Below are positions 8,245 through 48,653 of a stretch of DNA of 56,376 nt, piece after piece. The notes beneath the pieces are model-generated. The model was not told the DNA's origin. It did not search any database and saw only the letters and a list, made by a program, of their open reading frames with translations. Within the stretch, counting starts at the first letter, position 1. Each line of letters opens with the position of its first letter. The translations under genes were made by a program, and so were the position numbers. Origin of the DNA: a virus (lineage: Duplodnaviria; Caudoviricetes); IMG/VR virus record IMGVR_UViG_3300031227_000051, positions 1 through 56,376 of that record. One strand, 5' to 3'.

Positions 8245-8523
8245 ATGATGATAGGATATCAAGTGAGCAAAAGATATGAAGATTTATGGCAAATAATTGG
8301 TGCTGGCGCTGAGGTAATCGCTTACATTAAATGTAACGAAGATAAAAGAAGTCATACGGGCGAAGTTTGCACTATGAAAATGGAAGGAAATTTTATGCAA
8401 GCACGTTCAGAAGAAACAATGTATTTCATGTATAATATGCAAGAAGGCAAGGAAAAATTTATAAATAAATGTCACGATTACAAAGTGGAATTTTTACCAC
8501 CAAGTATGGGCATTAATAAGTAA
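8245..8523 (+). CDS. hypothetical protein
   Basis: GAGGAG RBS. Confidence 0.7.
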   Translation: MMIGYQVSKRYEDLWQIIGAGAEVIAYIKCNEDKRSHTGEVCTMKMEGNFMQARSEETMYFMYNMQEGKEKFINKCHDYKVEFLPPSMGINK

Positions 8524-8726
8524 AAGTTCTTGACAAATTATCAGCAATAATTATAGTAGTTATATAGAGTGATAAAGAGATTTTGTAATGAATATTTAGC
8601 TCAATAAGTCGAGAGCCGTACTCAAGAAGAATTCAAAGATGTGGGTTGCAATCCCACGATATTCATTATTAACTATAAAGTTCTTGACAAATTATCAGCA
8701 ATAATTATAGTAGTTATATAGAGTGA
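8523..8726 (+). repeat. ~50-bp exact direct repeat containing the TTGACA promoter (8523-8571 and 8677-8725)
   Basis: AAAGTTCTTGACAAATTATCAGCAATAATTATAGTAGTTATATAGAGTGA twice, each upstream of a tRNA-like gene. Confidence 0.9.
8590..8665 (+). ncRNA. tRNA-like RNA without a paired anticodon arm
   Basis: GAATATT/GATATTC acceptor, GCTC/GAGC D arm, GTGGG/CCCAC T arm. Confidence 0.6.
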
Positions 8727-8735
8727 AATTAGTGA

Positions 8736-8829
8736 GCGAGAATGGCGAAATGGTTACGCATCCCTAAAAGGGGATAGATAGATTATAGACGTATAACTGA
8801 TGCAGGTTCGAATCCTGCTTCTCGCACCA
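8736..8829 (+). ncRNA. aberrant tRNA (Leu-like body, 6-nt anticodon loop, long extra arm)
   Basis: GCGAGAA/TTCTCGC-ACCA, canonical T arm, ATCCC-TAAAAG-GGGAT. Confidence 0.65.
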
Positions 8830-8836
8830 TAAGTAT

Positions 8837-8940
8837 AACGAGAAAGCTGTAATTAGAACAGTAATACATAATGTTAATCATAGTGCACAATGAGTTATGT
8901 ATTTCAGTGAAAGCTGATGGATGCAACGTCCTCTCTCGTT
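8837..8940 (+). ncRNA. enlarged cloverleaf RNA
   Basis: AACGAGA/TCTCGTT closing stem; GCTGT/ACAGT, AATACATAA/TTATGTATT, TCAG/CTGA and GGA/TCC arms. Confidence 0.5.
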
Positions 8941-9041
8941 ATATTTTAATTAATGAGTACACAAAACGAAATCAATGTATAGTCAAGTAGTTGCCGGCGA
9001 CGAAAAAGGCATGACATTAATCGTTTTATTCGACTCGTTAT

Positions 9042-9110
9042 AGAGAGGTATTGTAATGATAACATGAGGCAATCCCCTCGATGCAGGTTCGAATCCTACC
9101 CTCTCGCCCA
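9042..9110 (+). ncRNA. compact tRNA-like RNA
   Basis: GAGAGG/CCTCTC, GAGG-CAATCC-CCTC, GGTTCGAATCC. Confidence 0.55.
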
Positions 9111-9118
9111 AAATTAAG

Positions 9119-9275
9119 TAAGATAGAACAGGTATTCATTATCAAAATTTGTGCTCTGACGTGTAAGCGTACGATGAGAGAAGGTTTATCTATATCATGT
9201 ATGTCCTAACATAGACTTGGGTCTATCACGTGGAACTGAAGGACGAAAAAATAAATACAAGTCAGTTCTATCTTA
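9119..9275 (+). ncRNA. structured ncRNA candidate
   Basis: TAAGATAGAAC...GTTCTATCTTA 11-bp terminal stem; no ORF. Confidence 0.45.
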
Positions 9276-9276
9276 T

Positions 9277-9368
9277 AGCATTCATTGGGCACTTAGTTCA
9301 AGACGGTAGAACAATCTCTGATTAGAGATTAAATACGAGTTCGAGTCTCGTAGTGTCCTTTGAATGCT
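9277..9368 (+). ncRNA. tRNA-like RNA (GAT/GATT loop) with an extended acceptor helix
   Basis: GGGCACT/AGTGTCC core 9287-9358; AGCATTCA/TGAATGCT extra helix; no CCA. Confidence 0.65.
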
Positions 9369-9483
9369 TAAATTATTAAAAAAATGCTTAAAAAATGAAA
9401 AAAAAATGATTTTTATTTACCAAGCATATACTTATTAGAAAGAAACGGAAAGTCTCGAAAGAGAAGAAATAAGGAAAATTAGA

Positions 9484-9624
9484 ATGCGAAGAAATAAACA
9501 AAAATTTAGCGAACTCGAATCATTATCAATGTGTATGAATCCCTGTGGACCGATGGTCTATTTGAATCATAAACAAAAGATAGATGCGATTACAGGGACA
9601 AATGGGCTAATGGGATATATGTAA
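9484..9624 (+). CDS. Met-rich 46-aa putative leader peptide
   Basis: AAGGA RBS; 6 Met; 3' end complementary to the 5' arm of the downstream terminator. Confidence 0.45.
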   Translation: MRRNKQKFSELESLSMCMNPCGPMVYLNHKQKIDAITGTNGLMGYM

Positions 9625-9651
9625 GTTATATACAACAAAACTTCTCCATTA

Positions 9652-9685
9652 GACCCAAGAAATAAACCGCTTGGGTTTTTTATTT
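9652..9685 (+). terminator. intrinsic terminator
   Basis: ACCCAAG...CTTGGGT-TTTTTATTT. Confidence 0.7.
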
Positions 9686-9830
9686 AGCCGAAAGTTCTTG
9701 ACAGATTTTTGATAAGAATTATAGTAGTTTTCTAAGATGAAAAGTAAGGGTCTTTATAAGAGAAATGAGACATTAATGATGTTTTGTTTTATAGAAGTGG
9801 CAATTGTGAAAGAAGAAAAAAATTTAGTGT

Positions 9831-9906
9831 GCCGTTATAGCTCAATTGGCAGAGCAATCGTTTCATGTGCGAAAGGTTACAGGTTCGATTCCCGTTAACG
9901 GCACCA
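9831..9906 (+). tRNA. tRNA-Met/Ile2 (CAT)
   Basis: cloverleaf, loop TTCATGT, CCA. Confidence 0.8.
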
Positions 9907-9917
9907 TTTATATATTA

Positions 9918-9970
9918 AGGACATATACAGCAAATCAAAAAATACTATGGTTAAGTAAAAATGTGTCCTG
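9918..9970 (+). ncRNA. CAGCAAA-element copy 1 (stem-loop TACT-ATGGTTA-AGTA)
   Basis: GGACAT..ACAGCAAA...GTGTCCTG. Confidence 0.7.
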
Positions 9971-9978
9971 TATTTAAT

Positions 9979-10045
9979 CAGGTAGTGGTCTAGTCCGGCT
10001 AAGACACAAGCATTGGAAGCGGAGGTTCGAATCCTCTCTACCTGA
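9979..10045 (+). tRNA. tRNA-Pro (TGG) lacking the 3' anticodon stem and variable loop
   Basis: CAGGTAG/CTACCTG, D and T arms intact; CAAGC-ATTGGAA-GC runs straight into the T stem. Confidence 0.7.
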
Positions 10046-10046
10046 C

Positions 10047-10112
10047 ACTTAACAATTGAACAACCTCCACGTGGTGTTAGGTGGAAGCGGGTAATGTCGA
10101 CAAATAGTTCAA
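10047..10112 (+). ncRNA. theta (HDV-like) ribozyme
   Basis: P1 ACTTAAC/GTTAGGT at tRNA 3' end, P2 TTGAAC/GTTCAA, P3 ACC-TCCACGT-GGT, P1.1 CC/GG, J4/2 CAAATA. Confidence 0.85.
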
Positions 10113-10151
10113 AGATAGATTTTTTATATATTTATAATAAGCAAAATACGA

Positions 10152-10228
10152 TGCGAGGTAGAGCAGTCTGGTAGCTTTTTGGACTCATAATCCAAAGGTC
10201 GGAGGTTCGAATCCTCTCCTCGCTACCA
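10152..10228 (+). tRNA. tRNA-Met (CAT), initiator-like
   Basis: 1:72 mismatch, GAGC D stem, loop CTCATAA, CCA. Confidence 0.9.
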
Positions 10229-10237
10229 AAATTATAA

Positions 10238-10298
10238 AGGACACATTCAGCAAATCAAAAATAAAAAAACACTGTTAATGTTAATAAAACGTGTCCTG
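10238..10298 (+). ncRNA. CAGCAAA-element copy 2 (Asn-like anticodon stem-loop AACA-CTGTTAA-TGTT)
   Basis: GGACAC..TCAGCAAA...GTGTCCTG. Confidence 0.75.
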
Positions 10299-10306
10299 AT
10301 TTTTAT

Positions 10307-10381
10307 GCGAGTGTAGCTCAGAGGCAGAGCACTAGGTTTCCAACCTAGGTGTCGAGATTTCAAAATTCTCCACTCGCTCCA
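10307..10381 (+). tRNA. tRNA-Gly (TCC)
   Basis: cloverleaf, CCA. Confidence 0.92.
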
Positions 10382-10393
10382 TTTTTGTAACAT

Positions 10394-10470
10394 TGTCTCG
10401 TGGCCTAATTGGCTAAGGCACCGGAATTTGACTCCGGCTATTGCAAGTTCGAGTCTTGCCGAGACAACCA
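10394..10470 (+). tRNA. tRNA-Gln (TTG)
   Basis: cloverleaf, CCA. Confidence 0.92.
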
Positions 10471-10704
10471 TTTATTAATTCAATAAAAGAAACTAACAAT
10501 AGTAATTGTCTCGTGTCTGTCCGTGATATATGATACAACAATTATTTACGTTACGGAGTACGTATAGAAATATCAGGTATCAAAGACAGCCTGACGGGCT
10601 CTAACCGTGTAAGGACGTAAATAATAGACATAAAAAATATAGTTGTGATATGCGTCATATATATTTCTCTTGTTTATATAATAAAAAGTACTAAGGAGCC
10701 AGAA

Positions 10705-10908
10705 ATGCATGATCACGTAGTGATAAAAATTAGAGAAGATTTGCCGAGAGAGAATATGATATACTGTAAATCAGATGATATGGTCACTTTTACAGATTCT
10801 TTAAACAATAAATATAACGTAACAATTCCAATGGAGGGACTTCTTCCTGAATGGGATGAGTGTGAACGACAATGGTATTGGGTTGAAACACCTGGAATAC
10901 AAAGATAA
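10705..10908 (+). CDS. hypothetical protein
   Basis: AAGGAG RBS before ATG 10705. Confidence 0.6.
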   Translation: MHDHVVIKIREDLPRENMIYCKSDDMVTFTDSLNNKYNVTIPMEGLLPEWDECERQWYWVETPGIQR

Positions 10909-10915
10909 TTATAAT

Positions 10916-10995
10916 GGGGTTGTTAAGGTAATGATTAATGTAAACCAACAAACGGAACATTAGTTATAAGAGTTCGACTCTCTTCGGCTCCACCA
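10916..10995 (+). ncRNA. mini-tmRNA-like RNA (tRNA-like domain only)
   Basis: Ala acceptor with G3-U70, A73, CCA; unpaired D loop; one long helix; canonical T arm. Confidence 0.65.
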
Positions 10996-11179
10996 AAATT
11001 TAAAAAGAATCCAAGATTAGACAGTAATAGACAAATAGTGTCTAATCTTGAATTGAATAAGAGAGTTGAGATTAAAATTCATAATACATATTCTCAGTCA
11101 GATAAAATAATAAAAAAAGTTCTTGACAAATTATCAGAAAGAATTATATTAGTAATATAGAGTGAAATTAGTGATAAAA

Positions 11180-11390
11180 AGAAATGAATTAGTTTTTACA
11201 TAGGACGGATTAGCGCCGTTGAAAGAAACTTCACCTTTCTAAATTGTTAGCTACTAAACTGAAAGAAATCATGTCGTGAAGTGAAATGTAGGAGACCCTG
11301 CTCTTTGGTGCATCAAAACAGGTAACGAGGAACAAATCGTTTATAAAATCTTGCTCATGTTAAACCGCATGAACTAATTAATTTATTTCT
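11180..11390 (+). ncRNA. structured ncRNA candidate
   Basis: follows TTGACA promoter; complementary ends; no ORF. Confidence 0.4.
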
Positions 11391-11410
11391 TTTTTGACAA
11401 ATATTAAATT

Positions 11411-11498
11411 GGGTAGGTAAATGCTAATCGGATAGGCAAGCAGGCTGTAACCCTGTCCTCGAAAGGGGCTGGAAGTTCGAGTCTTCCCCTGCCCACCA
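11411..11498 (+). tRNA. tRNA-Tyr (GTA)
   Basis: class II cloverleaf, CCA. Confidence 0.9.
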
Positions 11499-11600
11499 AA
11501 TTAAATGTCGAGAATGTAGTGTAATTGACTGGTTCGATAATTTTAATTTATTTTACAAAAATTCTCGAACTTATATACTTATAAATAGAGGTAAAAAATT

Positions 11601-12125
11601 ATGAAAAAGTCAGCACGAACAAATCTTAGAAAAAGAAGAAAGGCATTATTTGTGGAAAGAATGGGAGGCAAATGTTCTATTTGCGGATATAATAAGTGTA
11701 TTAATTCATTAGTATTTCATCATATTAATAAAAATGATAAGAATTATGAACCAGCACAACTAATGAATTTTTCTATCAAAAAGATAGAAAATGAATTAAA
11801 AAAGTGTATTTTAATTTGTGCAAATTGTCATGGAGAATTGCATTCAGAAAAATATGATTATAAAATTAATGTTCAAAAATATATTAGAGAATGAGTTGAA
11901 ATTGAATGTAAATTTTGTCATACAAACTTTTCAACAATGAATAAGAATAGAGTATATTGTTCACAAAAATGTAGTGATTTGGCATTACTAAAAGTTCCAA
12001 ATAGACCTACAAAAGATGAATTAAAAGAACTAATTTCCAACAATACATGAGTTGATATTGGAAGAATGTTTAGTGTATCAGATAACGCAGTAAGAAAGTG
12101 AGCAAAAAAATACAAATTAATATAA
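11601..12125 (+). CDS. HNH homing endonuclease with C-terminal Zn finger and HTH (3 TGA=Trp)
   Basis: CSICG..FHH..CILICANCHGELH; C-terminal IGRMFSVSDNAVRK-W after TGA read-through. Confidence 0.85.
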
Positions 12126-12130
12126 AATAT

Positions 12131-12204
12131 GAGGCTGTATCCATCTGGGAAGGAGCTACCCTGTCACGGTAGTAAGGCGGGTTCAATTCCCGTCAGCCTC
12201 GCCA
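12131..12204 (+). tRNA. tRNA-Asp (GTC)
   Basis: cloverleaf, G73, CCA. Confidence 0.92.
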
Positions 12205-12219
12205 TTTTTAATTAAATTA

Positions 12220-12293
12220 GGAGAGGTGGTGTATTGGTCGCACATATGGTTGAAGCCCATAGAGTATCAGTTCAATTCTGGTCCTCTCCACCA
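12220..12293 (+). tRNA. tRNA-Phe (GAA)
   Basis: cloverleaf, loop TTGAAGC, CCA. Confidence 0.88.
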
Positions 12294-12330
12294 AATTAAA
12301 ATCTTGACAAAAATGATAAAAGAGGATTAT

Positions 12331-12561
12331 ATGATAACAGTTACTATAACAGAAAAAGATATGTCAAAACAAAATCGTATTGAACTACAGTATGAATGTA
12401 AAGATTGTCGTTTCAAGAAAAAATGTATAAAAGACCTTGGTGAAAATTATCAATCATTTATGGGATCTTATAATTGCAGAAGAACTTGGGCATGTAATTG
12501 TCAAGATAAAAAAAGAAGTTTTCTAAAAAGTTTTCTAAAAATATTTAGAAAAATAATGTAG
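12331..12561 (+). CDS. Cys-rich small protein
   Basis: GAGGA RBS before ATG 12331. Confidence 0.55.
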   Translation: MITVTITEKDMSKQNRIELQYECKDCRFKKKCIKDLGENYQSFMGSYNCRRTWACNCQDKKRSFLKSFLKIFRKIM

Positions 12562-12643
12562 GGGTATAGCCAAATTGGTAAGGCTCTAGTCTGATACGCT
12601 GGGAAAACACCGTCTCTGAGTTCGATCCTCAGTGCCCCTACCA
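12560..12643 (+). tRNA. tRNA-Ile (GAT) with a 13-nt variable region
   Basis: cloverleaf, loop CTGATAC, CCA. Confidence 0.85.
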
Positions 12644-12654
12644 AAAAATTTAAG

Positions 12655-13140
12655 AATAGGCTATCGGGCTGAGGCGTTGGTTTACGAAAGAAGACCGAAA
12701 GTTTTAGTCCGTTCGTCATCATATTAAAAGAAGAAAAGTAGTGATTAATGAAAGTCACCAATAAATATTCGGCTGAAAAAGATAGTCACTTTTAGTCCAA
12801 TAAGTTATATAGTGATTGAACAATGGTAATACTATCTTATCTATACTGCTTTTTATTAAAAACAAAGAAGATATCGTTATAGAGGTAAGAAAGGTTCGCC
12901 AGCTATTTAATTTTACAAACCGGAAATTGTACGATTGAATATACCGTGGTAATGGTTTTGCAAACCGTCAAAGCTGGACGAGTTTTCTTTGTTTGCTTTT
13001 TTTTACAAAAAATTATGCTAACTAGATGGTGAGAAAGTCATAAAGTAGATGTTACTAATTAGTGGCGGTAACCATATCTAATTTAACAGACTATAGTGAT
13101 GAAAAATGGCGAGTTACCCGTCTATTCTGTTTAGTTAGTC
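12655..13140 (+). ncRNA. run of structured ncRNA candidates
   Basis: no ORF; closing stems AAACAAAGAA/TTCTTTGTTT (~12860-12995) and GCTAACTAGA/TTTAGTTAGT (~13017-13139). Confidence 0.4.
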
Positions 13141-13144
13141 TTTT

Positions 13145-13221
13145 GCTTCCTTAGCTCAATTTGGCAGAGTACCGGATTTGTAACCCGGAGGTTGTAGGTT
13201 CGAGGCCTACAGGAAGCACCA
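13145..13221 (+). tRNA. tRNA-Thr (TGT)
   Basis: cloverleaf, CCA. Confidence 0.9.
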
Positions 13222-13223
13222 TT

Positions 13224-13300
13224 GCCTCTTTAGCTCAATTTGGCAGAGCATCGGTTTCGTAAACCGGAGGTTATAAGTTCAATGCTTATAGGAGGCACCA
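13224..13300 (+). tRNA. tRNA-Thr (CGT)
   Basis: cloverleaf, CCA. Confidence 0.9.
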
Positions 13301-13309
13301 AAAATTGAT

Positions 13310-13388
13310 AGGGAGATGAACGGCAGGTTGAATAGTAGAGATGCATACTGAATTTCAGAAATAAAGTGGGTTCGAATCCGCTCTCCCT
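13310..13388 (+). ncRNA. degenerate tRNA-like sequence
   Basis: AGGGAGA/TCTCCCT and GGTTCGAATCC. Confidence 0.4.
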
Positions 13389-13774
13389 TCCCTAAAATTA
13401 TGGCGAGGCAACAAGATTGACTTTTAGTTTGAGTGATGCACTTAGAATCATTTCAGCTATTAGTGACGACATTGTAATCTTCACACTCATAAGTTCTTGT
13501 TCAGTGTGATCCTTGCGACCAAAGTTAAAGGTTCTGGGAGCGTGCCTAAAGAGAATGAATATCTCAGCTCTCTTCATTAAAATCTTGACAAGAAAATGAA
13601 AATAATTATTATAGTTTTTACATAGAGTGAAAAGAAACGAAAAAGTGTTGTAGTATACCTAGGATATGTTAAAGACTGACAGTACATATCGATCTATCTA
13701 ATTAGATAGATTTAACTACACTTAAAAAAGACCGTAACTAGTTTACGTCTCTGTCCACCATTTATTTAAATTAT

Positions 13775-13848
13775 GACTCTCTAGTGAAATGGTATCACGA
13801 ATGACTGTTAATCATTGATTTCAAGTTCAAATCTTGAGGGAGTCGCCA
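13775..13848 (+). tRNA. tRNA-Asn (GTT)
   Basis: cloverleaf, G73, CCA. Confidence 0.92.
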
Positions 13849-14270
13849 TAAATTAATCGAATAATAATGCTATATATAGTTTGTACGGTCGAGAATCTTT
13901 ATAACGTTATAGTGCCGTACCTTATGTACTTGTTTGCGTACGTCTTAAGCTCCGATACCAAATAAGTTGTAATAATGTAAATTATTGTGTATAAAGCATA
14001 GTCAACTATGTATAGTATTATTTTTAATTAAAGTTCTTGACAAAATATCGAGAATGATTATATTAGTAATATAGAGTGAAAGAAGAGAGTGAGAAAGTAA
14101 TAGTAAGTAAAAGCTATCGTACGTAAGCAGATAAAAAATCGCAGAGAAACTCAGGGTAGTCAATGTCTGCGTTGACATCTGGAAAGACAGACGTAAACCG
14201 GCACTTCTGCAGAGTGGGGCGATGTACCGGAAGCTTAACATTGAAGCCCGAAGTTAAGCACTTTATTATA

Positions 14271-14406
14271 AGGATAATAACAGCAAAAACAAAAATTCAG
14301 AAATCCGATGGCTTTATGTCGTGTAGGTTCGAGTCTTACTTGTTGATTCTATTTCAACAATGGTGGAATTGGTAGACACGTCGGAAACAATTTTAACATT
14401 ATCCTG
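14271..14406 (+). ncRNA. CAGCAAA-element copy 3 containing a circularly permuted tRNA-Leu-like domain
   Basis: order: TTCAGAAA-TCCGA, variable arm, T arm, TTGTTGA-loop-TCAACAA, Leu-type D arm, TCGGA; closed by GGATAAT/ATTATCC-TG. Confidence 0.85.
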
Positions 14407-14412
14407 TTTTAT

Positions 14413-14488
14413 ACGGGTGTAGCTCAATTGGAAGAGTCCCGGTCTTATATGCCGGTGGTCATGGGTTCGAGCCCCGTCACCCGTACCA
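14413..14488 (+). tRNA. tRNA-Ile (TAT)
   Basis: cloverleaf, loop CTTATAT, A73, CCA. Confidence 0.88.
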
Positions 14489-14509
14489 ATTTTATAAAAG
14501 GAAGTATTT

Positions 14510-14740
14510 ATGACAAAAGATGAATATATCAAAAAGGTAGAAGATTACTGCGAGGCATACGCTAATGCTAAATTATTTGTAAAAGAAGTAAATGATTATA
14601 ATGACGAAAGAGACGAAGAAGGAAGTTATCATGATTATATTCTTTCAATGTCAGCGAAAGATGAAATGACAGAACGTAAAGAAGATTTAATATCATTTTT
14701 ATATTCAAGTACGTATGAAGATGTAGAGATAAAAAAGTAA
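14510..14740 (+). CDS. acidic hypothetical protein
   Basis: AAGGA RBS. Confidence 0.65.
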   Translation: MTKDEYIKKVEDYCEAYANAKLFVKEVNDYNDERDEEGSYHDYILSMSAKDEMTERKEDLISFLYSSTYEDVEIKK

Positions 14741-14759
14741 TAAGAATAATGAGCATATA

Positions 14760-14810
14760 AGAACACATACAGCAAATTAAAATAGTCATGAAAACTAAAA
14801 ACGTGTTCTG
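14760..14810 (+). ncRNA. CAGCAAA-element copy 4 (stem-loop TAGT-CATGAAA-ACTA)
   Basis: AGAACAC-ATACAGCAAA...GTGTTCTG. Confidence 0.75.
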
Positions 14811-14818
14811 ACTTATAT

Positions 14819-14895
14819 GGCGTCGGTAGCTTAACTGGTAAAGCACAAGATTGTGGCTCTTGAAGATACAAGTTCGATTCTTGCTCGTCGCCCCA
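14819..14895 (+). tRNA. tRNA-His (GTG)
   Basis: encoded G-1:C73, CCA. Confidence 0.9.
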
Positions 14896-14911
14896 TTTTA
14901 TAAATATATAT

Positions 14912-14987
14912 GCCTCTATAGTGTAACTGAACAGCACATTAGACTTCTAATCTTATAGTGAGGGTTTGAATCCTTCTAGAGGCGCCA
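14912..14987 (+). tRNA. tRNA-Arg (TCT)
   Basis: cloverleaf, CCA. Confidence 0.9.
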
Positions 14988-14993
14988 AAATTA

Positions 14994-15130
14994 AGAACAT
15001 TTACAGCAAACCAAAAAGTTCGGAAAAACAGATTGAGTAACATCAATTATTTGCAGGTTATAGTCCTGTCGTCATAGTCTGGGGCGAAGTTAATACAGAC
15101 TTTAAACTAATAAACAAACAAAGTGTTCTG
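14994..15130 (+). ncRNA. CAGCAAA-element copy 5 with a degenerate permuted class II (Ser-like) tRNA domain
   Basis: TCGGAAA loop, GATTGA/TCAATT arm, GCAGG/CCTGT T arm, closed acceptor, D-like arm; AGAACATTT/AAAGTGTTCT-G. Confidence 0.65.
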
Positions 15131-15141
15131 TTATTTTATAA

Positions 15142-15224
15142 TGCGGGATGATGAAATGGTATCATGGGTCTGGCTTTAGTAGAGTCGGGCTAGTTTGGAG
15201 ATTCAATTTCTCTTCCCGCATCCA
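15142..15224 (+). ncRNA. tRNA-like RNA with an ~11-bp anticodon arm and 3-nt loop
   Basis: TGCGGGA/TCCCGCA-T-CCA, D and T arms; GGTCTGGCTTT-AGT-AGAGTCGGGCT. Confidence 0.7.
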
Positions 15225-15310
15225 CTTTTATTAAAGAATTCCTTGACAAATTACTGAGAATAATTATAGTAGTTTTATAGAGTGAAATTTAGTGAAAAAG
15301 AAATTTATAT

Positions 15311-15383
15311 GCTCTCATCGTCTAAATGGTTAGGATATAAGACCTTCAATCTTATGATGCGAATTCGAGTTTCGCTGAGAACA
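15311..15383 (+). tRNA. tRNA-Glu (TTC), C33, no CCA
   Basis: Glu-type D arm; TAAGA-CCTTCAA-TCTTA. Confidence 0.8.
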
Positions 15384-15468
15384 CTTCCCAAACAAAATGA
15401 ATAATTAATCTTGAACTTTTTTTATTTCTAATATATATTAATATAGAGAAGAATAAGGAGAATACATA

Positions 15469-16347
15469 ATGAAAGTTCATTTTGTCTATAAGATTACAAA
15501 CACTATAAATAATAAAATTTATATTGGCAAACATTCAACAAATAATATTGAAGATAATTATATGGGCTCTGGTAAAATATTAATAAGAGCAATTAAAAAA
15601 TATGGTATTGACAAATTCAAAAAAGAAATTTTATATGAGTTTGACACACCTGATAAAGCATTTTCAATGGAAGCTAAAATCGTTAATAAAGAATTTATTA
15701 AAAGAAAAGATACGTATAATATTAAACTTGGTGGCGAAGGCGGATGAGATTATTTTAAAGGTACAGTTACAGTTAAAGACAAAAATGGAAATACATCCAG
15801 GGTATCCAAAAATGATTCCAGATATTTATCTGGTGAGTTATTTTCAATTGCAAAAGGCACTGTATCAGTCAAGGACAAGAACAACAAACACTATCGAATT
15901 GCATTAAATAATCATAAATACCTATCTGGAGAATTAGTTCATAACAAAACTGATTTAGTAACTGTTAGAGATAACGATAATAATACATTTAGCGTATCAG
16001 TAAATGACCCAAGATATTTGTCGGGAGAATTAGTTTTTCATTTAACTAATATTGCTACGGTTAAGGATAAAGATGATAATATATTTTGTGTGCCAGTAAA
16101 TGACCCAAGATATTTGTCGGGAGAGTTGGTTGGTATTTCAAAGGGAAAACATCACAGCGAAAAAACAAAGAAAAAAATATCAAAATCAGCAATGGGCAAA
16201 CATGTTGGCGAACTTAATTCTCAATATGGAACGTATTGAATTTACAATGAAAAATTAAAAGAAAGTAAAAAAATAACAAAAAAAGAACTGCAAAATTGAA
16301 TTGACAGAGGTTGAATTAAAGGCAGAAAAATAAATTGAGTTTTATAG
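15469..16347 (+). CDS. GIY-YIG homing endonuclease with four ~31-aa repeats and NUMOD3 (5 TGA=Trp)
   Basis: [28 protein letters not shown]; repeats VKD..ND.RYLSGEL; [10 protein letters not shown]; ends G-W-IKGR. Confidence 0.9.
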
Positions 16348-16414
16348 CTCATATAATTAAAGATATGAGCGACAAACATATTAGTTGTTCATACGTGAGC
16401 GACAAACTTTTTAT

Positions 16415-16504
16415 GGGCATGTACGCAAATTGGCAAAGCGGCTGGACTTAAAATCCAGTGTGGGTTTACCCCTAATAAGAGTTCGATTCTCTTCATGCCT
16501 ACCA
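16415..16504 (+). tRNA. tRNA-Leu (TAA)
   Basis: class II cloverleaf, CCA. Confidence 0.9.
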
Positions 16505-16644
16505 TAAATCTATCCCTCTTTATGGTTTTCGGTTCGACACCAAATAGGGACATCAAAAAAAATAAACATTGGGGATAACAATGATGAAAGCATATGAATT
16601 TGAAAATGGCATGACAATTAAAGAATTAAAAGAAATATTTACTT

Positions 16645-16718
16645 GCGGCATTAGGTTAGTGGTAGACCATCGGATTTTCTCTCCGATAGCAACAGTTCAA
16701 TTCTGTTATGCCGTACCA
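16645..16718 (+). tRNA. tRNA-Glu (TTC), loop TTTTCTC
   Basis: cloverleaf, CCA. Confidence 0.82.
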
Positions 16719-16759
16719 AAAATAAGTACACTTCGACTGGTACCTATAAGTAAGTGTAT

Positions 16760-16899
16760 AGCAAGTGGTCTGGGTTTGACCAAGTTGCAAAGTAAATGTA
16801 TGTTTTGCAAGACGTATCATTTAACATTTGTGGAAACTAAAATCCTGACAGGTGATATCAGCCTGTACTAAAGCGGTTGGATTCCGTAGCTTGCGACCA
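16760..16899 (+). ncRNA. ~140-nt giant tRNA-like RNA
   Basis: GCAAGT/GCTTGC-GACCA, GGTC/GACC D arm, very long central arm with TTGCAA apex, extra arm, GCGG/CCGT T arm. Confidence 0.6.
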
Positions 16900-16921
16900 A
16901 AATAATAAGTGAGGTTTTAAA

Positions 16922-17473
16922 ATGAAAAAGATTATATTTGAAGAAAAAGAATGTTATATTGCGTATAAAGTATTGCATGAAGATTTATCTAATTTTAAAG
17001 AAAATTATACTTACGAAACTGAAAATTGGTACTCAACTTTAGAAGTTGATATGACCGACGAATCCTGTTCTTATGGTTGTAATTTATTCAAAACAATTGA
17101 AGCAAGTTTTATTTTCATGAATCATGGTAAAATCTTTAAATGTTATGTTCCAATAAAAAACAATAAAATAAAATTTATTAATAATGAAAGTAAATTTAGA
17201 TGTCTTAAATTTTATTTAACTAATGAAGAAGTATTTTTAGATTATATTAAAAATTATGAAAAGTATTGGAATGAATTAACTGAAGACCAGAAAGAACGTA
17301 TTTGCATACATAATATCAATTTCAATTATGAAAAGTATTGGAATGAATTAACAGAATATCAGAAAGATTGTGTTTGTTCAAATAATATCAATTTCAATTA
17401 TGAAAAGTATTGGAATGAATTAACTGAATATCAGAAGAATTATGCTTGTAGAAGTACAGTAATAAAAGGTTAA
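16922..17473 (+). CDS. hypothetical protein with three 23-aa tandem repeats (NYEKYWNELTE.QK)
   Basis: 69-nt repeats ~17252-17445. Confidence 0.75.
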   Translation: MKKIIFEEKECYIAYKVLHEDLSNFKENYTYETENWYSTLEVDMTDESCSYGCNLFKTIEASFIFMNHGKIFKCYVPIKNNKIKFINNESKFRCLKFYLTNEEVFLDYIKNYEKYWNELTEDQKERICIHNINFNYEKYWNELTEYQKDCVCSNNINFNYEKYWNELTEYQKNYACRSTVIKG

Positions 17474-17541
17474 TAACTTGACAAAATTATAGAAAACGTA
17501 TAAGAAAGTTGCCATTTTTAAAAATTTAAAAAGGAGATATT

Positions 17542-17757
17542 ATGAAAAACTTTACATTAACAATGAAAGAAGTTGAAAAACAAATTGAAGATATTAAAAA
17601 AATGAAATATGATACTGAAGGTGTTCATGTATTTGAGGACGATTTACATCATGATTTTATTTTACATATTGCAAATAACGGTACGAAAGAACAGAGAGAA
17701 ATGGCAAAAAGAATATTAACTACAGATGATATTATATCTGAAAGATGGTATTCATAA
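17542..17757 (+). CDS. hypothetical protein
   Basis: AAGGAG RBS. Confidence 0.65.
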   Translation: MKNFTLTMKEVEKQIEDIKKMKYDTEGVHVFEDDLHHDFILHIANNGTKEQREMAKRILTTDDIISERWYS

Positions 17758-17794
17758 CAGCATACAACTGAAAGTATTAAAAATAAATTTATAT

Positions 17795-17889
17795 GAGTGA
17801 GTATGCGAATTGGAATAGCAGGTGGACTTAAAATCCATTGGAGGATGAACCTCGTTAAATTAAGAGTTCGAATCTCTTCTCACCTACCA
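17795..17889 (+). tRNA. tRNA-Leu (TAA)
   Basis: class II cloverleaf, imperfect acceptor, CCA. Confidence 0.82.
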
Positions 17890-17895
17890 TTTTAT

Positions 17896-17928
17896 GCCCG
17901 ATTAGCTCAATTTGGGAGAGCGTCATTG
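17896..17928 (+). pseudogene. 5' fragment of a tRNA (Val-like), truncated upstream of the endonuclease
   Basis: GCCCGAT-TA-GCTC-AATTTGGGA-GAGC-G with no 3' half. Confidence 0.6.
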
Positions 17929-18039
17929 ATAATATATAACTAAAATTCGTGTTAATTAAAAATGCAAAACTCATATAGAAATATACTAAATTTTTTAAGT
18001 TCGACTATATTTATTACTAAATAAGGAGAATGTAAAAAA

Positions 18040-18732
18040 ATGAAATGTAAATATTGCGGTAAAGAAATAATCAATCCAAAATTTTGTAACAATAGTTGTG
18101 CGGCAAAGTATAATAATAAGAAACGTGGCAAAAGAAGTGATATAACAAAAAAGAAAATTAGTGAAAGTTTAACTGGAAGAATTTCAGGGAAGAAAAAAGA
18201 ATATGTAGAGAAAATATGCCCAGTATGTAAGATAAAATTTTATGTCAATAAGAATAATAAACAAAAAATGAAAAGAATATATTGCTCAAAAAATTGCAAA
18301 AATAAATGCCCCATACTTAAAGAGAAATATTCAGAAATGGCAAAAAAAAGATGTAGTACGTTAGAAGAAAAAAATAGAATGAGAGAAATTGGGAGAAAAG
18401 GTGGCTTTGGTACAAAAGGATATTTAAAATCAGGCATAAGATATGAGTCACTATTTGAAAAAAAATGCTTCATTTGATTAGAAGAAAACAATATTAAATT
18501 TATTCCACACAAAAGATTGCCAAATAGTGCAAAAGTTACTGACATATACATTTCTAATAAAAATTTGTGAATTGAACTGGATGGAATAGATAGACGTAAA
18601 AAGCAAAAATTTCTAAAAGATAATATCAAAAGATGAGAAGAAAAAATTAAATTATATGAACAAAATGAACTTAATTATAAAATATTTTATAATACAAACG
18701 AATTAATAGATTTTATTGGGGAATTATTTTAA
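18040..18732 (+). CDS. Zn-finger/NUMOD + Vsr/PD-(D/E)xK-like homing endonuclease (3 TGA=Trp)
   Basis: CKYCG, CPVC, CSKNC; TDIYISNKNL-W-IELDG after read-through; stop overlaps tRNA-Val. Confidence 0.8.
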
Positions 18733-18788
18733 CGGTAGAATAATTGGCTTACATCCAATTGGCAAAAGTTCGATTCTTTTATTCCCTA
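18718..18788 (+). tRNA. tRNA-Val (TAC), no CCA
   Basis: ATTGG-CTTACAT-CCAAT, T arm; followed by theta ribozyme. Confidence 0.8.
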
Positions 18789-18854
18789 ACTTAACGATTG
18801 AGCAACCTCTACGTGGTGTTAAGTAGAAACAGATAATGCTGGCAAATAGTTCAA
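18789..18854 (+). ncRNA. theta (HDV-like) ribozyme
   Basis: P1 ACTTAAC/GTTAAGT starts right after N73; P1.1 CT/AG covaries with CC/GG of the 10047 copy. Confidence 0.85.
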
Positions 18855-18877
18855 AATAAAAACAATAAGGTACTAAC

Positions 18878-19258
18878 ATGTCAAAAAAATTAGGAAGAAT
18901 TTATCGAGAAGAAGATGAAACAATGAATCATGATGTTCAACGACAATATTATGATATTTTAAAGCTTTGCAAATTTATTTCTAAAGAAGATACATGATTT
19001 ATCGAAGGAACAGAGGTTAAATTTGTTGGTAATGATATATTTATTTTATGAGGTGAATATAATAATGAAGATGTATTATTTAATGACAATCTATCATTAT
19101 TTGAGGGACTTACAAATTTTAATTGTAAAGAAAACGAATCGGCTCATATAGACCAAGAAAGCTGTTCATTTGAGGAATTTAAAATTATGTATAAAGATAT
19201 GAATATATCAGAAATGTCATTAAAAGATTTTAAATCCTTGACAAAATATCAGAAGTAA
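18878..19258 (+). CDS. hypothetical protein (2 TGA=Trp)
   Basis: AAGGT RBS; 126 aa open under code 4. Confidence 0.7.
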
Positions 19259-19297
19259 TTATTATAGTTTTATAGAGTGAAAAAAGAATTTAATGTA

Positions 19298-24849: not shown

Positions 24850-24923
24850 GGGGATGTGATGTAACGGTAACATAATACACCTGCAATGTATTTCTAAGAG
24901 TTCGATTCTCTTCATCTCCACCA
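24850..24923 (+). tRNA. tRNA-Ala (TGC), C33
   Basis: G3-U70, loop CCTGCAA, CCA. Confidence 0.9.
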
Positions 24924-25740: not shown

Positions 25741-25824
25741 ATTTTTGAATAAAACAAACAATTAGTCTCGAACTTTTTTATTTTTCATATATACTAATAT
25801 AAAGAATGATTAAGGAGAATAATT

Positions 25825-26697
25825 ATGAAGTTTAATTTTGTTTATAAAATTACAAATATAGTTAATAATAAAATTTATATTGGCAAACATTCAACTGATA
25901 ATATTAAAGATGGATATATGGGTTCTGGATTATGTTTAGGTAGAGCTATTAAAAAATATGGCATTGATAAATTTAAAAGAGAAATATTATATGAATTTGA
26001 TACAAAAAAAGAGGCTTACTTAATGGAAGCAAAAATAGTTAATAAAGAATTTATTAAAAGAAAAGATACCTATAATATTAAACTTGGCGGAGAAGGTGGT
26101 TGAGACCACACAAGAAAAATGGTTACAATTAAAGATTCTACTGGAAATTGCTTTAATATTCCCATTAATGATCCTAGATATTTATCTGGAGAGTTAATCG
26201 GTGTAACAAAGGGGTTTATCCCAGTTAAAGATGAAAATGGCAATACTAGTCAAGTATCAGTAAACGACCATAGATATTTGTCAGGAGAACTAGTTGGCAT
26301 AGCAAAAGGTTTGGTTATGGTTAAAGATGAAAATGGCAATACTAGTCAAGTATCAGTAAATGATCATAGATATTTGTCAGGAGAACTAGTTCATATAGCA
26401 AAAGGTTTGGTTATGGTTAAAGATGAAAATAATAACATTTATAAGGTATCAAAAAATGATTCAAGATATTTGTCAGGTGAATTAGTTGGAATTTGAAAAG
26501 GCAGAAATCATTCAGAAGAAACAAAAAGAAAAATATCAAAATCTAACAAAAACAATCATATTGGAAAGTTAAATTCTCAATATGGAACATGTTGAATTAT
26601 GAATGAAAAATTACAAAAAAGTAAAAAAATAAAAAAAGAAGACTTACAATATTGACTAAATATAGGCTGAAGTAGAGGAAGAAAAATGTCAATATAA
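25825..26697 (+). CDS. GIY-YIG homing endonuclease, paralog of 15469 (5 TGA=Trp)
   Basis: same catalytic domain, four RYLSGEL repeats, NUMOD3, G-W-SRGR. Confidence 0.9.
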
Positions 26698-28785: not shown

Positions 28786-30102
28786 ATGATAAAAGACAAG
28801 AGTCGTAAATGTTCTTTCTGCGGACGTACCGAAGATGAGGTTGAATTTCTCATAGCGGGAATTGATGGTAATGCTTGTAATGATTGTATCGAGATAATTC
28901 AAACTGTATTTGAGAATATTCAAAAAAGAAAAGATGATGTAGAGAACGGGTTTGAAATTCCTAAACCAAAAGAAATTCACAAATTTTTAGATGAATATGT
29001 AATTGGGCAAGAAAGTGCAAAAAAGACAATATGTGTCGCCGTTTATAATCATTATAAACGAATACTTCAGCAAATCGAAGATGATGACGTTGAAATAGAG
29101 AAAAGTAATATTTTAATGGTAGGACCAACAGGTTCGGGCAAAACATTTATTGCCAAAACATTAGCAAAATTTTTAAAAGTGCCTTTCGCAATTGCCGATG
29201 CTACCACTCTAACAGAAGCAGGATATGTAGGCGATGATGTCGAGAATATTTTAGTTCGTTTACTACAAAATGCAGATTATGATGTAAAGAAAGCAGAGAG
29301 GGGAATTGTATATATTGACGAGATTGATAAAATAGCTCGTACATCCGAAGCTCGCTCTATAACTCGTGACGTTTCAGGGGAAGGTGTTCAGCAAGCTATA
29401 TTAAAGATGTTAGAAGGTGCAAAAGTAAATATACCACCAAAAGGTGGACGAAAACATCCACAACAGGAAATGATTGAAATAGATACGAAAAATATTTTAT
29501 TTATCTCTGGCGGAGCATTTACTGGGTTGAAAACTATAATTAAGGGTCCTGATAAAGAAAAAACTATTGGATTTAATAGTGTACTCAGAGTCGAGAATGA
29601 TTCTACTGATGATGTCGATATGCTCTCAAAATGTACTTCTGATGATTTAGTTAAATATGGACTTATTCCAGAATTGGTGGGTCGCATTCCTATTGTTTCA
29701 TTTTTGGAAGAATTAAATAAAAAGGCATTAATAGAAATACTTACCGAACCTAAGAATGCAATTTGCAAACAATTTAAAAAACTTTTTGAGATGGAAGGGG
29801 TTGAATTAAAATTTAATTCAGCAGCCTTAAACGAAATTGCAGAAATTGCCTCTAATCAAAAAACGGGCGCCCGCAGCTTAAGAGCTATTATGGAAAAATT
29901 TATGCTTGATATAATGTATGATATACCAGATATGAATGCAAAGGAATGTAAGATTACCAAAGGTGTAGTGTCCGGAAAAACAAAACCAAAATATATCTTA
30001 AATGAAGATGAAAAATATGTATGTTCTCAGTCTACGCCGAAGTTGAAGTATGAAATTTCTGAATCCCCGATTGAGTTTGAAATTAAAGTTTGTCAAAAAT
30101 AG
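28786..30102 (+). CDS. clpX: ATP-dependent Clp protease ATP-binding subunit
   Basis: C4 Zn finger, [21 protein letters not shown] loop, IGF loop, GARSL. Confidence 0.97.
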
Positions 30103-43682: not shown

Positions 43683-44042
43683 GGGAGTGAAAAGGTATCG
43701 ACAGTGAGTCTTTCCTTAAACAATTCACATCATGTCTGCAACAAACATGTAAAACTATGTTGTAATTTTTCAAATGGCGAAAGTCTATTAATGGCGGCGT
43801 AAGCCTCTCCTAATGTAATGGCTATTCTTTCTCTATTATAAATTAGGTCAGTATGAAGGATAATCCGTAATCACTTAATGGATGACAAGATAAAGCGTGA
43901 GAACGTAATGCAATCGACTAGGATGCTGTGTTTTGTTTGTATGTTTATTTATCACATGATATAATAAAATATACTAAGTGTGTAAAAAAGATTGTGGTAG
44001 GTTACTTGTTGGACGTGGGTTCGACTCCCACCACTTCCACCA
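43683..44042 (+). ncRNA. ssrA: tmRNA
   Basis: GGGAGTG/CACTTCC-ACCA with G3-U70; tag ORF ~43770-43802 SNGESLLMAA*. Confidence 0.93.
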
Positions 44043-48578: not shown

Positions 48579-48653
48579 CGCAGTATAGTTCAGTGGTAGA
48601 ACAATGAATTCTAAACTCATGTGTCGTAGGTTCGATTCCTACTACTGCGACCA
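48579..48653 (+). tRNA. amber suppressor tRNA (CTA)
   Basis: CGCAGTA/TACTGCG, A73, CCA; ATGAA-TTCTAAA-CTCAT. Confidence 0.9.

What the first reader, a model, noticed from the sequence alone, without database searches (positions are those of the whole stretch)
10916..10995. 80-nt tmRNA tRNA-like domain without an mRNA part, alongside a full tmRNA
Seen: G1-C72, G2-C71, G3-U70, A73, CCA; an unpaired D region (TTAAGGTAATGA) resembling the start of the tmRNA at 43683 (AAAAGGTATCGA); one 9-bp helix capped by a 15-nt loop; canonical T arm. Known: some mitochondrial tmRNAs lack the tag reading frame. Inference: an SmpB/AlaRS-binding RNA that rescues ribosomes without tagging, or titrates SmpB.
Basis: partly seen in the sequence, partly recalled or inferred. 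Interest (0 to 1): 0.7.

Follow-up and report, generated by a model that had tools for sequence, protein, structure and literature searches.

The report
Tagless mini-tmRNA gene in a phage
This 80-base gene in a phage's tRNA cluster is a stripped-down ribosome-rescue RNA (tmRNA) that keeps the alanine-accepting tRNA-like part but has no tag message, a type previously described in print for one phage and here found to be common in uncultured phages.

Summary
Window 10916-10995 (+) folds into a 7-bp acceptor stem with G3-U70, A73 and CCA. It has a canonical T arm, no D stem, and an 11-bp helix capped by 15 nt.

ARAGORN does not call it. Rfam's tmRNA model gives only 19.3 bits. I built a covariance model from 55 short tRNA-like-domain-only (TLD-only) tmRNA elements of other viral contigs, without the window. 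That model scores the element 57.9 bits (E 4e-11). The phage's own tRNA-Ala scores 37.7, and 1.47 Mb of unrelated viral DNA scores at most 33.2.

The 16-nt cap UAAACCAACAAACGGA recurs in 10 other distinct elements, exactly or with one C/U change. All have G3-U70, A73 and different, compensating helices.

It is therefore a divergent member of the CDS-less tmRNA kind known from mycobacteriophage DS6A. Two papers report that the DS6A form inhibits E. coli tmRNA.

The unusual point is context. A full tmRNA (43683-44042) and a ClpX gene lie in the same record. Ten of 10 other TLD-only-bearing viral records had no full tmRNA.

Alanylation, SmpB binding and expression remain untested.

The parts
10916..10995 (+). 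TLD-only (CDS-less) mini-tmRNA gene, 80 nt, with encoded CCA
   Evidence: Sequence and fold. Model R1 gives 57.9 bits, E 4e-11, full length. Not called by ARAGORN. Rfam tmRNA gives only 19.3 bits, truncated.
10916..10922 (+). Acceptor stem 5' strand GGGGUUG. It pairs with 10985-10991 (CGGCUCC) and includes G3-U70.
   Evidence: Pairing is 7/7. G1-C72, G2-C71 and G3-U70 are invariant in 11 of 11 members of the cap subfamily.
10923..10934 (+). D-loop analogue UUAAGGUAAUGA with no D stem. It keeps the GG and the GA of the tmRNA motif GGnnUCGAC but has AAUGAU in place of UUCGAC. In the minimum-energy fold, bases 10931-10934 also belong to the long helix.
   Evidence: Alignment to the model consensus.
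10931..10941 (+). 5' strand of the helix-2-like stem. It pairs with 10957-10967.
   Evidence: 11 pairs. 5 of 5000 shuffles reach this length. The family helix co-varies.
10941..10956 (+). Conserved cap motif UAAACCAACAAACGGA
   Evidence: Among the 10 other distinct elements, 4 carry it exactly (L207, L208, L221, L225) and 6 carry a C-to-U change.
10957..10967 (+). 3' strand of the helix-2-like stem
10968..10984 (+). T arm AAGAG-UUCGACU-CUCUU
   Evidence: Pairing is 5/5. It matches the T arm of the phage's own tRNA-Ala at 16 of 17 positions (read). This T-arm type is shared by several tRNAs of the array (family D5).
10985..10995 (+). Acceptor stem 3' strand, discriminator A and CCA
11011..11051 (.). 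Near-perfect 13-bp inverted repeat 15 nt downstream of the element. It may be the end of the transcription unit (inference). There is no T run.
   Evidence: In metagenome contigs it shows a depth spike and loose ends on both sides, as a repeated element would.
9690..9756 (+). Nearest upstream copy of the repeated promoter-like element (TTGACA ... TATAGT type). The next copy lies at 11115-11181, after the element.
   Evidence: family D2, 7 copies; 11 of 12 consensus match at 11123-11150. The unit promoter - 4 tRNAs - 87-aa ORF - mini-tmRNA - hairpin is my inference.
43683..44042 (+). Full-length one-piece tmRNA of the same phage
   Evidence: Rfam RF00023, 96.4 bits, model positions 1-374. ARAGORN misses it. 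A candidate tag frame at 43776-43802 reads GESLLMAA-stop. The resume codon is not established.
28786..30102 (+). ClpX-like unfoldase gene. ClpX is the enzyme that recognises tmRNA tags in bacteria (general knowledge). Any link to the RNAs here is inference.
   Evidence: Pfam AAA_2 (8e-33), zf-C4_ClpX (5e-12) and ClpB_D2-small.
24850..24923 (+). The phage's ordinary tRNA-Ala(UGC), used as comparator
   Evidence: R1 gives 37.7 bits. Its 3' part is 86% identical to that of the element.

Best explanation
The element is a gene for a CDS-less, TLD-only tmRNA. It is a tRNA-shaped RNA with alanine identity marks (G3-U70, A73). It has a tmRNA-type D-loop analogue instead of a D arm, a helix-2-like stem in place of the anticodon arm, and no reading frame.

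Shown here:
- the anatomy;
- membership of a co-varying family that is common in viral contigs;
- a sequence-invariant cap shared with 10 other distinct elements.

Inferred:
- It is co-transcribed with the neighbouring tRNAs and cut out by the tRNA-processing enzymes.
- It is charged with alanine by host AlaRS and bound by host SmpB and EF-Tu.
- It enters ribosomes stalled on broken mRNAs, as tmRNA does.
- Having no message, it cannot add a degradation tag, so it competes with full-length tmRNA for SmpB and for stalled ribosomes. It thereby lowers tagging by trans-translation. This is the effect reported for the DS6A form expressed in E. coli.

Why a phage that also carries a complete tmRNA and ClpX would do this is open.
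For: Anatomy.

Family evidence:
- With three elements from loci fetched earlier, that gave 104 distinct sequences. Of these, 58 carry a tmRNA-type D-loop motif and 55 (76-85 nt) were aligned.
- The alignment gives 19 consensus pairs, 13 with compensatory changes.
- Model R1, built without the window, scores the element 57.9 bits (E 4e-11), full length, as the top hit of the window. The phage's tRNA-Ala scores 37.7 and all other tRNAs 25.3 or less.
- The best hit in 1,468,440 bases of unrelated viral loci is 33.2 bits.

Cap subfamily:
- The search pattern set only the cap and the T loop.
- All 10 of 10 other distinct elements nevertheless have 7/7 acceptor pairs, G3-U70, A73, 5/5 T-stem pairs and helices of different sequence.
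- 99% of cells are paired, 15 of 19 pairs change on both sides, 0 of 500 shuffles reach this, and slid controls pair at 51.5% or less.

tmRNA rather than tRNA origin:
- Typical family members match Rfam tmRNA globally at 51-75 bits.
- In one printed alignment (L209) the cap hairpin aligns to the second segment of tmRNA helix 2.

Context:
- 6 of 55 family members abut a tRNA gene within 6 nt on the same strand.
- L208 lies between two tRNAs.

Function by homology: DS6A carries a 'TLD only' tmRNA (found at JN698994 28478-28560, 43.2 bits). The literature says it inhibits endogenous tmRNA in E. coli, perhaps by titrating SmpB (PMC4131195 passages; PMC11915505 passages).

SmpB: no SmpB gene was found in the window or in 5 TLD-only phage records, 3 of them at least 98% complete. 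A host partner is therefore implied.
Against: - Rfam's tmRNA model does not recognise this element: 19.3 bits, truncated, against a cut-off of 47.
- The near-invariant UUCGAC of the D-loop analogue is AAUGAU here, and that region contacts SmpB in tmRNA (general knowledge). SmpB binding is therefore less certain than for typical members.
- Its T arm and acceptor stem look like those of the phage's own tRNAs rather than its tmRNA.
- The family was ascertained with patterns derived from this element (GG at 12-13, T loop, UCCA). Those columns match by construction.
- The alignment was fitted to the model.
- No evidence of transcription, processing, charging or SmpB binding exists for this element.
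- An inhibitor of trans-translation next to the phage's own full tmRNA is not an obvious design.
- The primary paper (Mao et al. 2009) was not available. I rely on two citing papers.
Confidence: 0.6

Rival explanations
1. Tagless rescue factor. The same RNA, charged and delivered by SmpB and EF-Tu, accepts the stalled peptide. The peptidyl-RNA then leaves the ribosome and is hydrolysed, which frees ribosomes without tagging. The phage would gain ribosomes when host mRNAs are destroyed. This shares every upstream step with the best explanation and differs only in the net effect: rescue rather than blockade.
For: CDS-less tmRNAs are conserved in some mitochondria together with imported SmpB, and are thought to help with incomplete mRNAs (PMC11915505 passage). 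The element sits in a large tRNA array of a phage that also carries tmRNA, ClpX, an Rnl2-type RNA ligase and a Thg1-like enzyme. That is a translation-maintenance gene set.
Against: The only functional report on a phage form, as cited, is inhibition of tmRNA. No release step after peptidyl transfer is known for an RNA without a stop codon (general knowledge).
Confidence: 0.22
2. Decoy for host factors other than SmpB. Candidates are defence nucleases or sensors that recognise tRNA-like or tmRNA-like RNAs, or RNase R. The invariant cap would be the bait.
For: The 16-nt cap is sequence-invariant across phages of 29-52% G+C whose helices all differ. That argues for a specific partner. Defence systems with SmpB-like domains predicted to bind tmRNA have been described (PMC11090510 passages). 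The phage carries tRNA-repair-type genes.
Against: Other family members carry different caps, often a 3-bp hairpin with a tetraloop. The cap is therefore not one universal bait. No conserved neighbouring protein was found: the largest neighbour cluster covers 12 of 65 loci and looks like one phage lineage.
Confidence: 0.1
3. Decayed or remodelled paralogue of the phage's tRNA-Ala with no function of its own.
For: Its 3' part is 86% identical to tRNA-Ala(UGC) at 24850-24923. T arms match at 16 of 17 positions. ARAGORN and Rfam do not call it.
Against: It scores 20 bits above the real tRNA-Ala on a model of TLD-only tmRNAs. It carries a cap motif found, exactly or with one C/U change, in 10 unrelated loci. 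It has a perfect 11-bp helix that decay would not create. Contigs of three other salt-lake runs are identical over it. The same T-arm type occurs in several tRNAs of this phage, so the likeness is not specific to tRNA-Ala.
Confidence: 0.05
4. Leftover of integration into a host tmRNA gene (an attP-type fragment), or an unusual decoding tRNA that uses the 7-nt AACAAAC loop.
For: Phages often integrate into tmRNA genes and carry 3' fragments of them (PMC4131195 and PMC9004378 passages). The cap can close with two C-G pairs into a 7-nt loop.
Against: Both halves of the acceptor stem are present and co-vary, which an att fragment would not need. The loop has A where tRNAs have U33. Other family members have tetraloops, which cannot decode.
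Confidence: 0.03

Closest known systems
CDS-less 'TLD only' tmRNA of mycobacteriophage DS6A. It is listed as 'Standard, no CDS' in the 2025 tmRNA database, which holds 9 such sequences in all.
   Same: About 80 nt. Acceptor stem with G3-U70 and A73, T arm, no D stem, one helix closed by a short cap, no reading frame, and phage-encoded.
   Different: DS6A keeps the GGnnUCGAC motif and scores 43.2 bits globally on Rfam tmRNA. The window element has AAUGAU, an A+U-rich longer helix that reaches the T stem, a different cap, and 19.3 bits. DS6A ends ACUA, whereas the window element encodes CCA. The window record also holds a full tmRNA.
Bacterial and phage full-length one-piece tmRNA (Rfam RF00023), including the one at 43683-44042
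   Same: TRNA-like domain architecture and alanine identity marks. The D-loop analogue matches at 8 of 12 positions, and the T loop UUCGACU is identical.
   Different: No pseudoknots, no tag reading frame, and 80 nt against 360 nt.
Mitochondrial tmRNAs without a tag frame (Rfam RF02544)
   Same: Both are tmRNA derivatives reduced to the tRNA-like part (PMC11915505).
   Different: Those genes are usually circularly permuted. The model does not hit the element: its only match in the window is 22 bits on the 3' end of the full tmRNA.
tRNA-Ala
   Same: Acceptor stem, discriminator and T arm. All are probably read by the same AlaRS, CCA and RNase P machinery (inference).
   Different: No D stem, no anticodon loop, and no call by ARAGORN.

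Membership tests
CDS-less (TLD-only) standard-form tmRNA, DS6A type | 7-bp acceptor stem with G3-U70 and discriminator A | tested here: met
CDS-less (TLD-only) standard-form tmRNA, DS6A type | Canonical T arm (5 bp, loop UUCGAnU) | tested here: met
CDS-less (TLD-only) standard-form tmRNA, DS6A type | D-loop analogue without a D stem, GG at positions 12-13 | tested here: met
CDS-less (TLD-only) standard-form tmRNA, DS6A type | The UUCGAC (or UUUGAC / UUCGAU) motif before helix 2, and GGAC before the T stem | tested here: not met
   AAUGAU and GUUAU here. Only G18, A19 and A51 are kept (alignment). One other subfamily member, L218, also lacks the motif.
CDS-less (TLD-only) standard-form tmRNA, DS6A type | One helix-2-like stem closed by a cap of about 20 nt or less, with no reading frame | tested here: met
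   The cap is 15 nt.
CDS-less (TLD-only) standard-form tmRNA, DS6A type | Significant score on a family covariance model trained without it | tested here: met
   R1 gives 57.9 bits, E 4e-11. Background is at most 33.2 bits in 1.47 Mb. E-values from this model are rough.
CDS-less (TLD-only) standard-form tmRNA, DS6A type | Alanylation by AlaRS and binding of SmpB | not testable with these tools
   Needs biochemistry.
tmRNA as curated in Rfam (RF00023) | Score at or above the gathering cut-off of 47 bits | tested here: not met
   19.3 bits, 5'-truncated local match. Fifteen typical TLD-only elements tested reach 51-75 bits, and two atypical ones 40.7 and 45.3.
Full-length tmRNA | Message-like region with resume codon, tag frame and stop, plus pseudoknots | tested here: not met
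   80 nt in all. The 15-nt cap has no frame.
tRNA (RF00005 / ARAGORN cloverleaf) | D stem and a 7-nt anticodon loop with U33 | tested here: not met
   No ARAGORN call. No Rfam tRNA hit at the gathering score. No D stem in the fold.
Mitochondrial tmRNA (RF02544) | Match to the family model | tested here: not met
   No match on the element at E up to 10.

The most novel reading that the evidence does not exclude
TLD-only tmRNAs are not a DS6A oddity. They are a widespread class of phage genes that annotation largely misses, usually standing alone in complete phage genomes. Their caps, such as the invariant UAAACCAACAAAYGGAR, would be specific docking sites for a conserved host partner beyond SmpB.

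In this salt-lake phage the mini-tmRNA, a full tmRNA with its own tag (candidate GESLLMAA) and a phage ClpX would form a three-part system. It would take over ribosome rescue: the mini form shuts out the host tmRNA while the phage's own tmRNA and ClpX redirect tagging and degradation.
Probability: 0.15. Interest if true: 0.75.

Novelty: new member of a known kind. Interest (0 to 1): 0.5.

Why it matters
What tmRNAs without a message do is an open question for mitochondria, plastids and phages.

- The 2025 tmRNA database lists only 9 'standard, no CDS' sequences.
- A second scan gave a subfamily with an invariant cap.
- This yields concrete mutants to test: G3-U70, the GA/A pairs at the base of the helix, and the cap.
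- It also yields a natural case in which the mini form and a full tmRNA coexist in one phage.
- The element shows as well that ARAGORN and the Rfam tmRNA model can both miss such genes.

Tried and rejected
- Relatives of the phage:
  - The 87-aa ORF just upstream has no relative in IMG/VR and no PHROG.
  - The ClpX gene finds only matches of 56% identity or less, so no close phage relative was found for synteny.
  - BLAST of 9800-12300 against isolated phages hits only tRNAs.
- BLAST of the element against isolated phages gave marginal hits (Klebsiella phage RaK2, a marine virus). The family model does not confirm them. Synechococcus phage S-CRM01 has only a weak 25.6-bit half-match.
- BLAST of the G+C-rich element L004 found nothing.
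- No RNA holder is listed for the window DNA, so expression could not be examined.
- Contigs laid on the region:
  - Three salt-lake runs are identical over the element.
  - One marine run holds a 370-nt contig 88% identical across 10694-11027.
  - The table did not list which differences fall inside the element, so no variant analysis was possible.
- Conserved neighbour genes: ORFs within 2.5 kb of 65 elements were clustered. The largest cluster covers 12 loci, apparently one phage lineage. No universal partner emerged.
- A zero-codon message (the cap's UAA read as a stop) is rejected as a general idea. Only 29 of 55 family members have a stop triplet there.
- ARAGORN's long tmRNA calls over two family members (L097, L105) are not backed by Rfam, which matches only the 78-81-nt form.
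- Mao et al. 2009 is not held.
- Supplementary tables of the 2025 database paper, which may list further phage CDS-less forms, could not be seen.
- Literature searches for a described class of phage TLD-only tmRNAs found only the DS6A mentions.

Full report
WHAT IS THERE

The window is an IMG/VR virus record of 56,376 bases, estimated about 25% complete, with 30.6% G+C. ARAGORN tRNA genes in it, all on the + strand. Rfam finds a full one-piece tmRNA at 43683-44042 (96.4 bits, cut-off 47).

The finding lies between tRNA-Gln (10394-10470) and tRNA-Tyr (11411-11498), 8 nt after the stop of an 87-aa ORF.

Read directly, the 80 nt are:
- GGGGUUG, the acceptor 5' strand;
- UUAAGGUAAUGA, with no D stem;
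- an 11-bp A+U-rich helix (positions 16-26 with 42-52);
- a 15-nt cap;
- the T arm AAGAG-UUCGACU-CUCUU;
- CGGCUCC, the acceptor 3' strand;
- ACCA.

G3-U70 and A73, the alanine identity marks (general knowledge), are present.

Chance is an unlikely explanation:
- 5 of 5000 shuffles of the central 45 nt give a helix that long.
- The whole 80-mer has z = -2.17.

STANDARD DETECTORS FAIL

ARAGORN does not call the element. No Rfam family reaches its gathering score there. With permissive thresholds, the tmRNA model gives a 5'-truncated 19.3-bit match that rests on the T arm and the acceptor 3' strand. The mitochondrial tmRNA model does not hit it.

The element's 3' part is 86% identical to the phage's own tRNA-Ala(UGC) (alignment). 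That T-arm type is shared by several tRNAs of the array (family D5).

A FAMILY EMERGES

A pattern holding only the acceptor Gs, GG at positions 12-13, the T loop and UCCA was scanned over IMG/VR.

- Together with three elements from loci fetched earlier, 121 matches gave 104 distinct sequences.
- After dropping those that ARAGORN calls tRNA, or that carry a UUGCA anticodon loop, 86 remained.
- 58 of these carry a tmRNA-type D-loop motif such as GGUUUCGAC.
- 55 of them, 76-85 nt long, were aligned.
- RNAalifold gives acceptor stem, helix and T stem: 19 pairs, 13 with compensatory changes.

Features that the pattern did not impose are conserved: UUCGAC, a purine-rich bulge followed by CC...GG, and GGAC before the T stem.

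Mycobacteriophage DS6A's published 'TLD only' tmRNA is one of them. I located it at JN698994 28478-28560, with 43.2 bits on Rfam tmRNA aligned end to end and 312 model positions skipped.

Typical members reach 51-75 bits on the Rfam tmRNA model as about 80-nt global matches. In one printed alignment (L209) the cap hairpin aligns to the second segment of tmRNA helix 2. These are therefore tmRNAs cut back to the tRNA-like domain plus the base of helix 2.

THE WINDOW ELEMENT BELONGS TO THE FAMILY

Model R1 was built from the 55 sequences without the window. With filters off:

| Target | R1 score |
|---|---|
| Window element, full length, best hit of the window | 57.9 bits (E 4e-11) |
| Phage tRNA-Ala | 37.7 bits |
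| Next best tRNA | 25.3 bits |
| 3' end of the full tmRNA | 21 bits |
| Best hit in 1,468,440 bases of unrelated viral loci | 33.2 bits |

 The E-values are rough. The columns used in my search pattern match by construction. The 20-bit gap to tRNA-Ala comes from columns that were not imposed.

A SUBFAMILY WITH THE SAME CAP

A pattern made only of the cap and the T loop found 3 viral and 11 metagenome stretches.

- One (L217) is not a tRNA-like element.
- After merging identical copies there are 10 distinct elements besides the window's.
- Four carry UAAACCAACAAACGGA exactly and six have one C-to-U change.
- Their loci span 29-52% G+C.
- Nothing in the pattern required it, yet all 10 have 7/7 acceptor pairs, G1-C72, G2-C71, G3-U70 and A73.
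- All 10 also have 5/5 T-stem pairs and a helix of different sequence in each.

On the model-fitted alignment 99% of cells pair, and 15 of 19 pairs change on both sides. 0 of 500 shuffles reach this, and slid controls pair at 51.5% or less. One member (L218) resembles the window element: it lacks UCGAC and has a helix that runs up to the T stem.

CONTEXT

Family members often sit in tRNA clusters:
- 6 of 55 abut a tRNA within 6 nt on the same strand.
- L208 lies between tRNA-Met and tRNA-Leu of a complete 145-kb genome.
- L152 lies in a 12-tRNA array beside a ROOL RNA.

In the window, a repeated promoter-like element (7 copies) lies at 9690-9756 and again at 11115-11181, and a 13-bp inverted repeat follows the element at 11011-11051. 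I infer a unit of promoter, four tRNAs, small ORF, mini-tmRNA and hairpin.

No conserved neighbouring protein exists across 65 loci. No SmpB gene was found in the window or in 5 other records.

The stricter pattern found only 15 stretches in 596 billion bases of prokaryote genomes, all in MAG contigs. By comparison, 29 loci match it among the truncated viral scan. The class is thus mainly viral.

WHAT IS UNUSUAL HERE

In 10 of 10 other viral records that carry a short element (7 of them at least 90% complete), that element is the only tmRNA-model match. The window record has both a mini form and a full tmRNA. The full tmRNA has a candidate tag frame reading GESLLMAA-stop. The record also carries ClpX, an Rnl2-type RNA ligase and a Thg1-like enzyme.

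HOW IT LIKELY WORKS

Shown: anatomy, family membership, alanine identity marks and tRNA-cluster context.

Inferred:
- processing like a tRNA;
- charging by host AlaRS;
- binding by host SmpB and EF-Tu;
- entry into stalled ribosomes;
- competition with full tmRNA, because no tag can be added.

The basis is homology to DS6A's form. Two papers from the tmRNA database group say that form inhibits endogenous tmRNA in E. coli, perhaps by titrating SmpB (passages read in PMC4131195, and PMC11915505). The primary paper was not available.

The divergent D-loop analogue weakens the SmpB inference for this particular member. Tagless rescue, as suggested for mitochondria, is the main rival. A decoy role for the invariant cap is a bolder one (for defence proteins with SmpB-like domains).

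NOVELTY

The kind is known: DS6A, listed among 9 'standard, no CDS' sequences in the 2025 database. Five literature searches found no description of a broad phage class. A 2022 survey of phage tmRNAs based on ARAGORN does not mention such forms in the passages read.

The element is a new, divergent member. The family-level picture and the coexistence with a full tmRNA are the added value.

LIMITS

- The family was ascertained by patterns taken from the element.
- One scan was truncated.
- The model E-values are rough.
- There are no expression data.
- The phage genome is incomplete and its host unknown.
- Supplementary tables of the database paper could not be seen.

Noticed in passing
window 48579-48653 (+): tRNA with anticodon CUA (ARAGORN labels it Pyl; Rfam tRNA 67.1 bits). 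It is an amber-suppressor-type tRNA, so the phage may read TAG as a residue in some genes.
   Followed up: no
window 8736-8829 and 9287-9359 (+): ARAGORN calls two odd tRNAs, one with a 2-nt ('aa') and one with a 4-nt ('gatt') anticodon. The first also scores 46.7 bits on Rfam tRNA.
   Followed up: no
window 24850-24923 (+): The phage tRNA-Ala(UGC) has the anticodon loop CCUGCAA, with C where tRNAs almost always have U33.
   Followed up: no
window 8590-8665, 9042-9110, 9979-10048 (+): Further tRNA-like stretches that ARAGORN does not call. Rfam tRNA gives 33.5 bits at 8590-8665. There are weak R1 hits (16.5 and 19.1 bits) at the other two.
   Followed up: no
window 43683-44042 (+): ARAGORN misses the full tmRNA that Rfam finds at 96.4 bits. 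A candidate tag frame at 43776-43802 reads GESLLMAA-stop.
   Followed up: partly
window 8522-19296 (7 copies, e.g. 8676-8742 and 11115-11181): A repeated 67-nt promoter-like element (TTGACA ... TATAGT) punctuates the tRNA array. Related copies lie at 13577 and 24154.
   Followed up: partly
window 11011-11051: A 13-bp inverted repeat. In metagenome contigs of four runs it shows raised depth and loose ends on both sides, as if the hairpin were a dispersed repeat in this or related phages.
   Followed up: partly
window 15418-16331 and 25774-26687: A segment of about 900 nt is duplicated 10,356 nt apart at about 79% identity. Each copy contains three 96-nt tandem repeats.
   Followed up: no
window 1840-3027, 20471-22360, 31491-32231, 40482-41516, 51071-52105: Genes for NAPRTase, NAD-dependent DNA ligase, a Thg1-like enzyme, an Rnl2-type RNA ligase and a histidine kinase. 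This is an RNA-repair and NAD-salvage set in a phage with a large tRNA array.
   Followed up: partly
L152 3239-3835 (-): A ROOL RNA (285.9 bits) lies 25 nt from a TLD-only tmRNA inside a 12-tRNA array of another viral contig.
   Followed up: no
L105 974-1038 (-): A type II hammerhead ribozyme (44.1 bits) lies about 1.2 kb from a TLD-only tmRNA.
   Followed up: no
L117, L123, L181, L188 and L089, L092, L106, L200: Further groups of about 80-nt G3-U70 elements lack the UCGAC motif and have other caps (for example CUUAUCCAAAUACU and UAAGGCCCCACGAGGGAAA). Those of L123 and L135 score 45.3 and 40.7 bits on Rfam tmRNA, just under the cut-off.
   Followed up: partly
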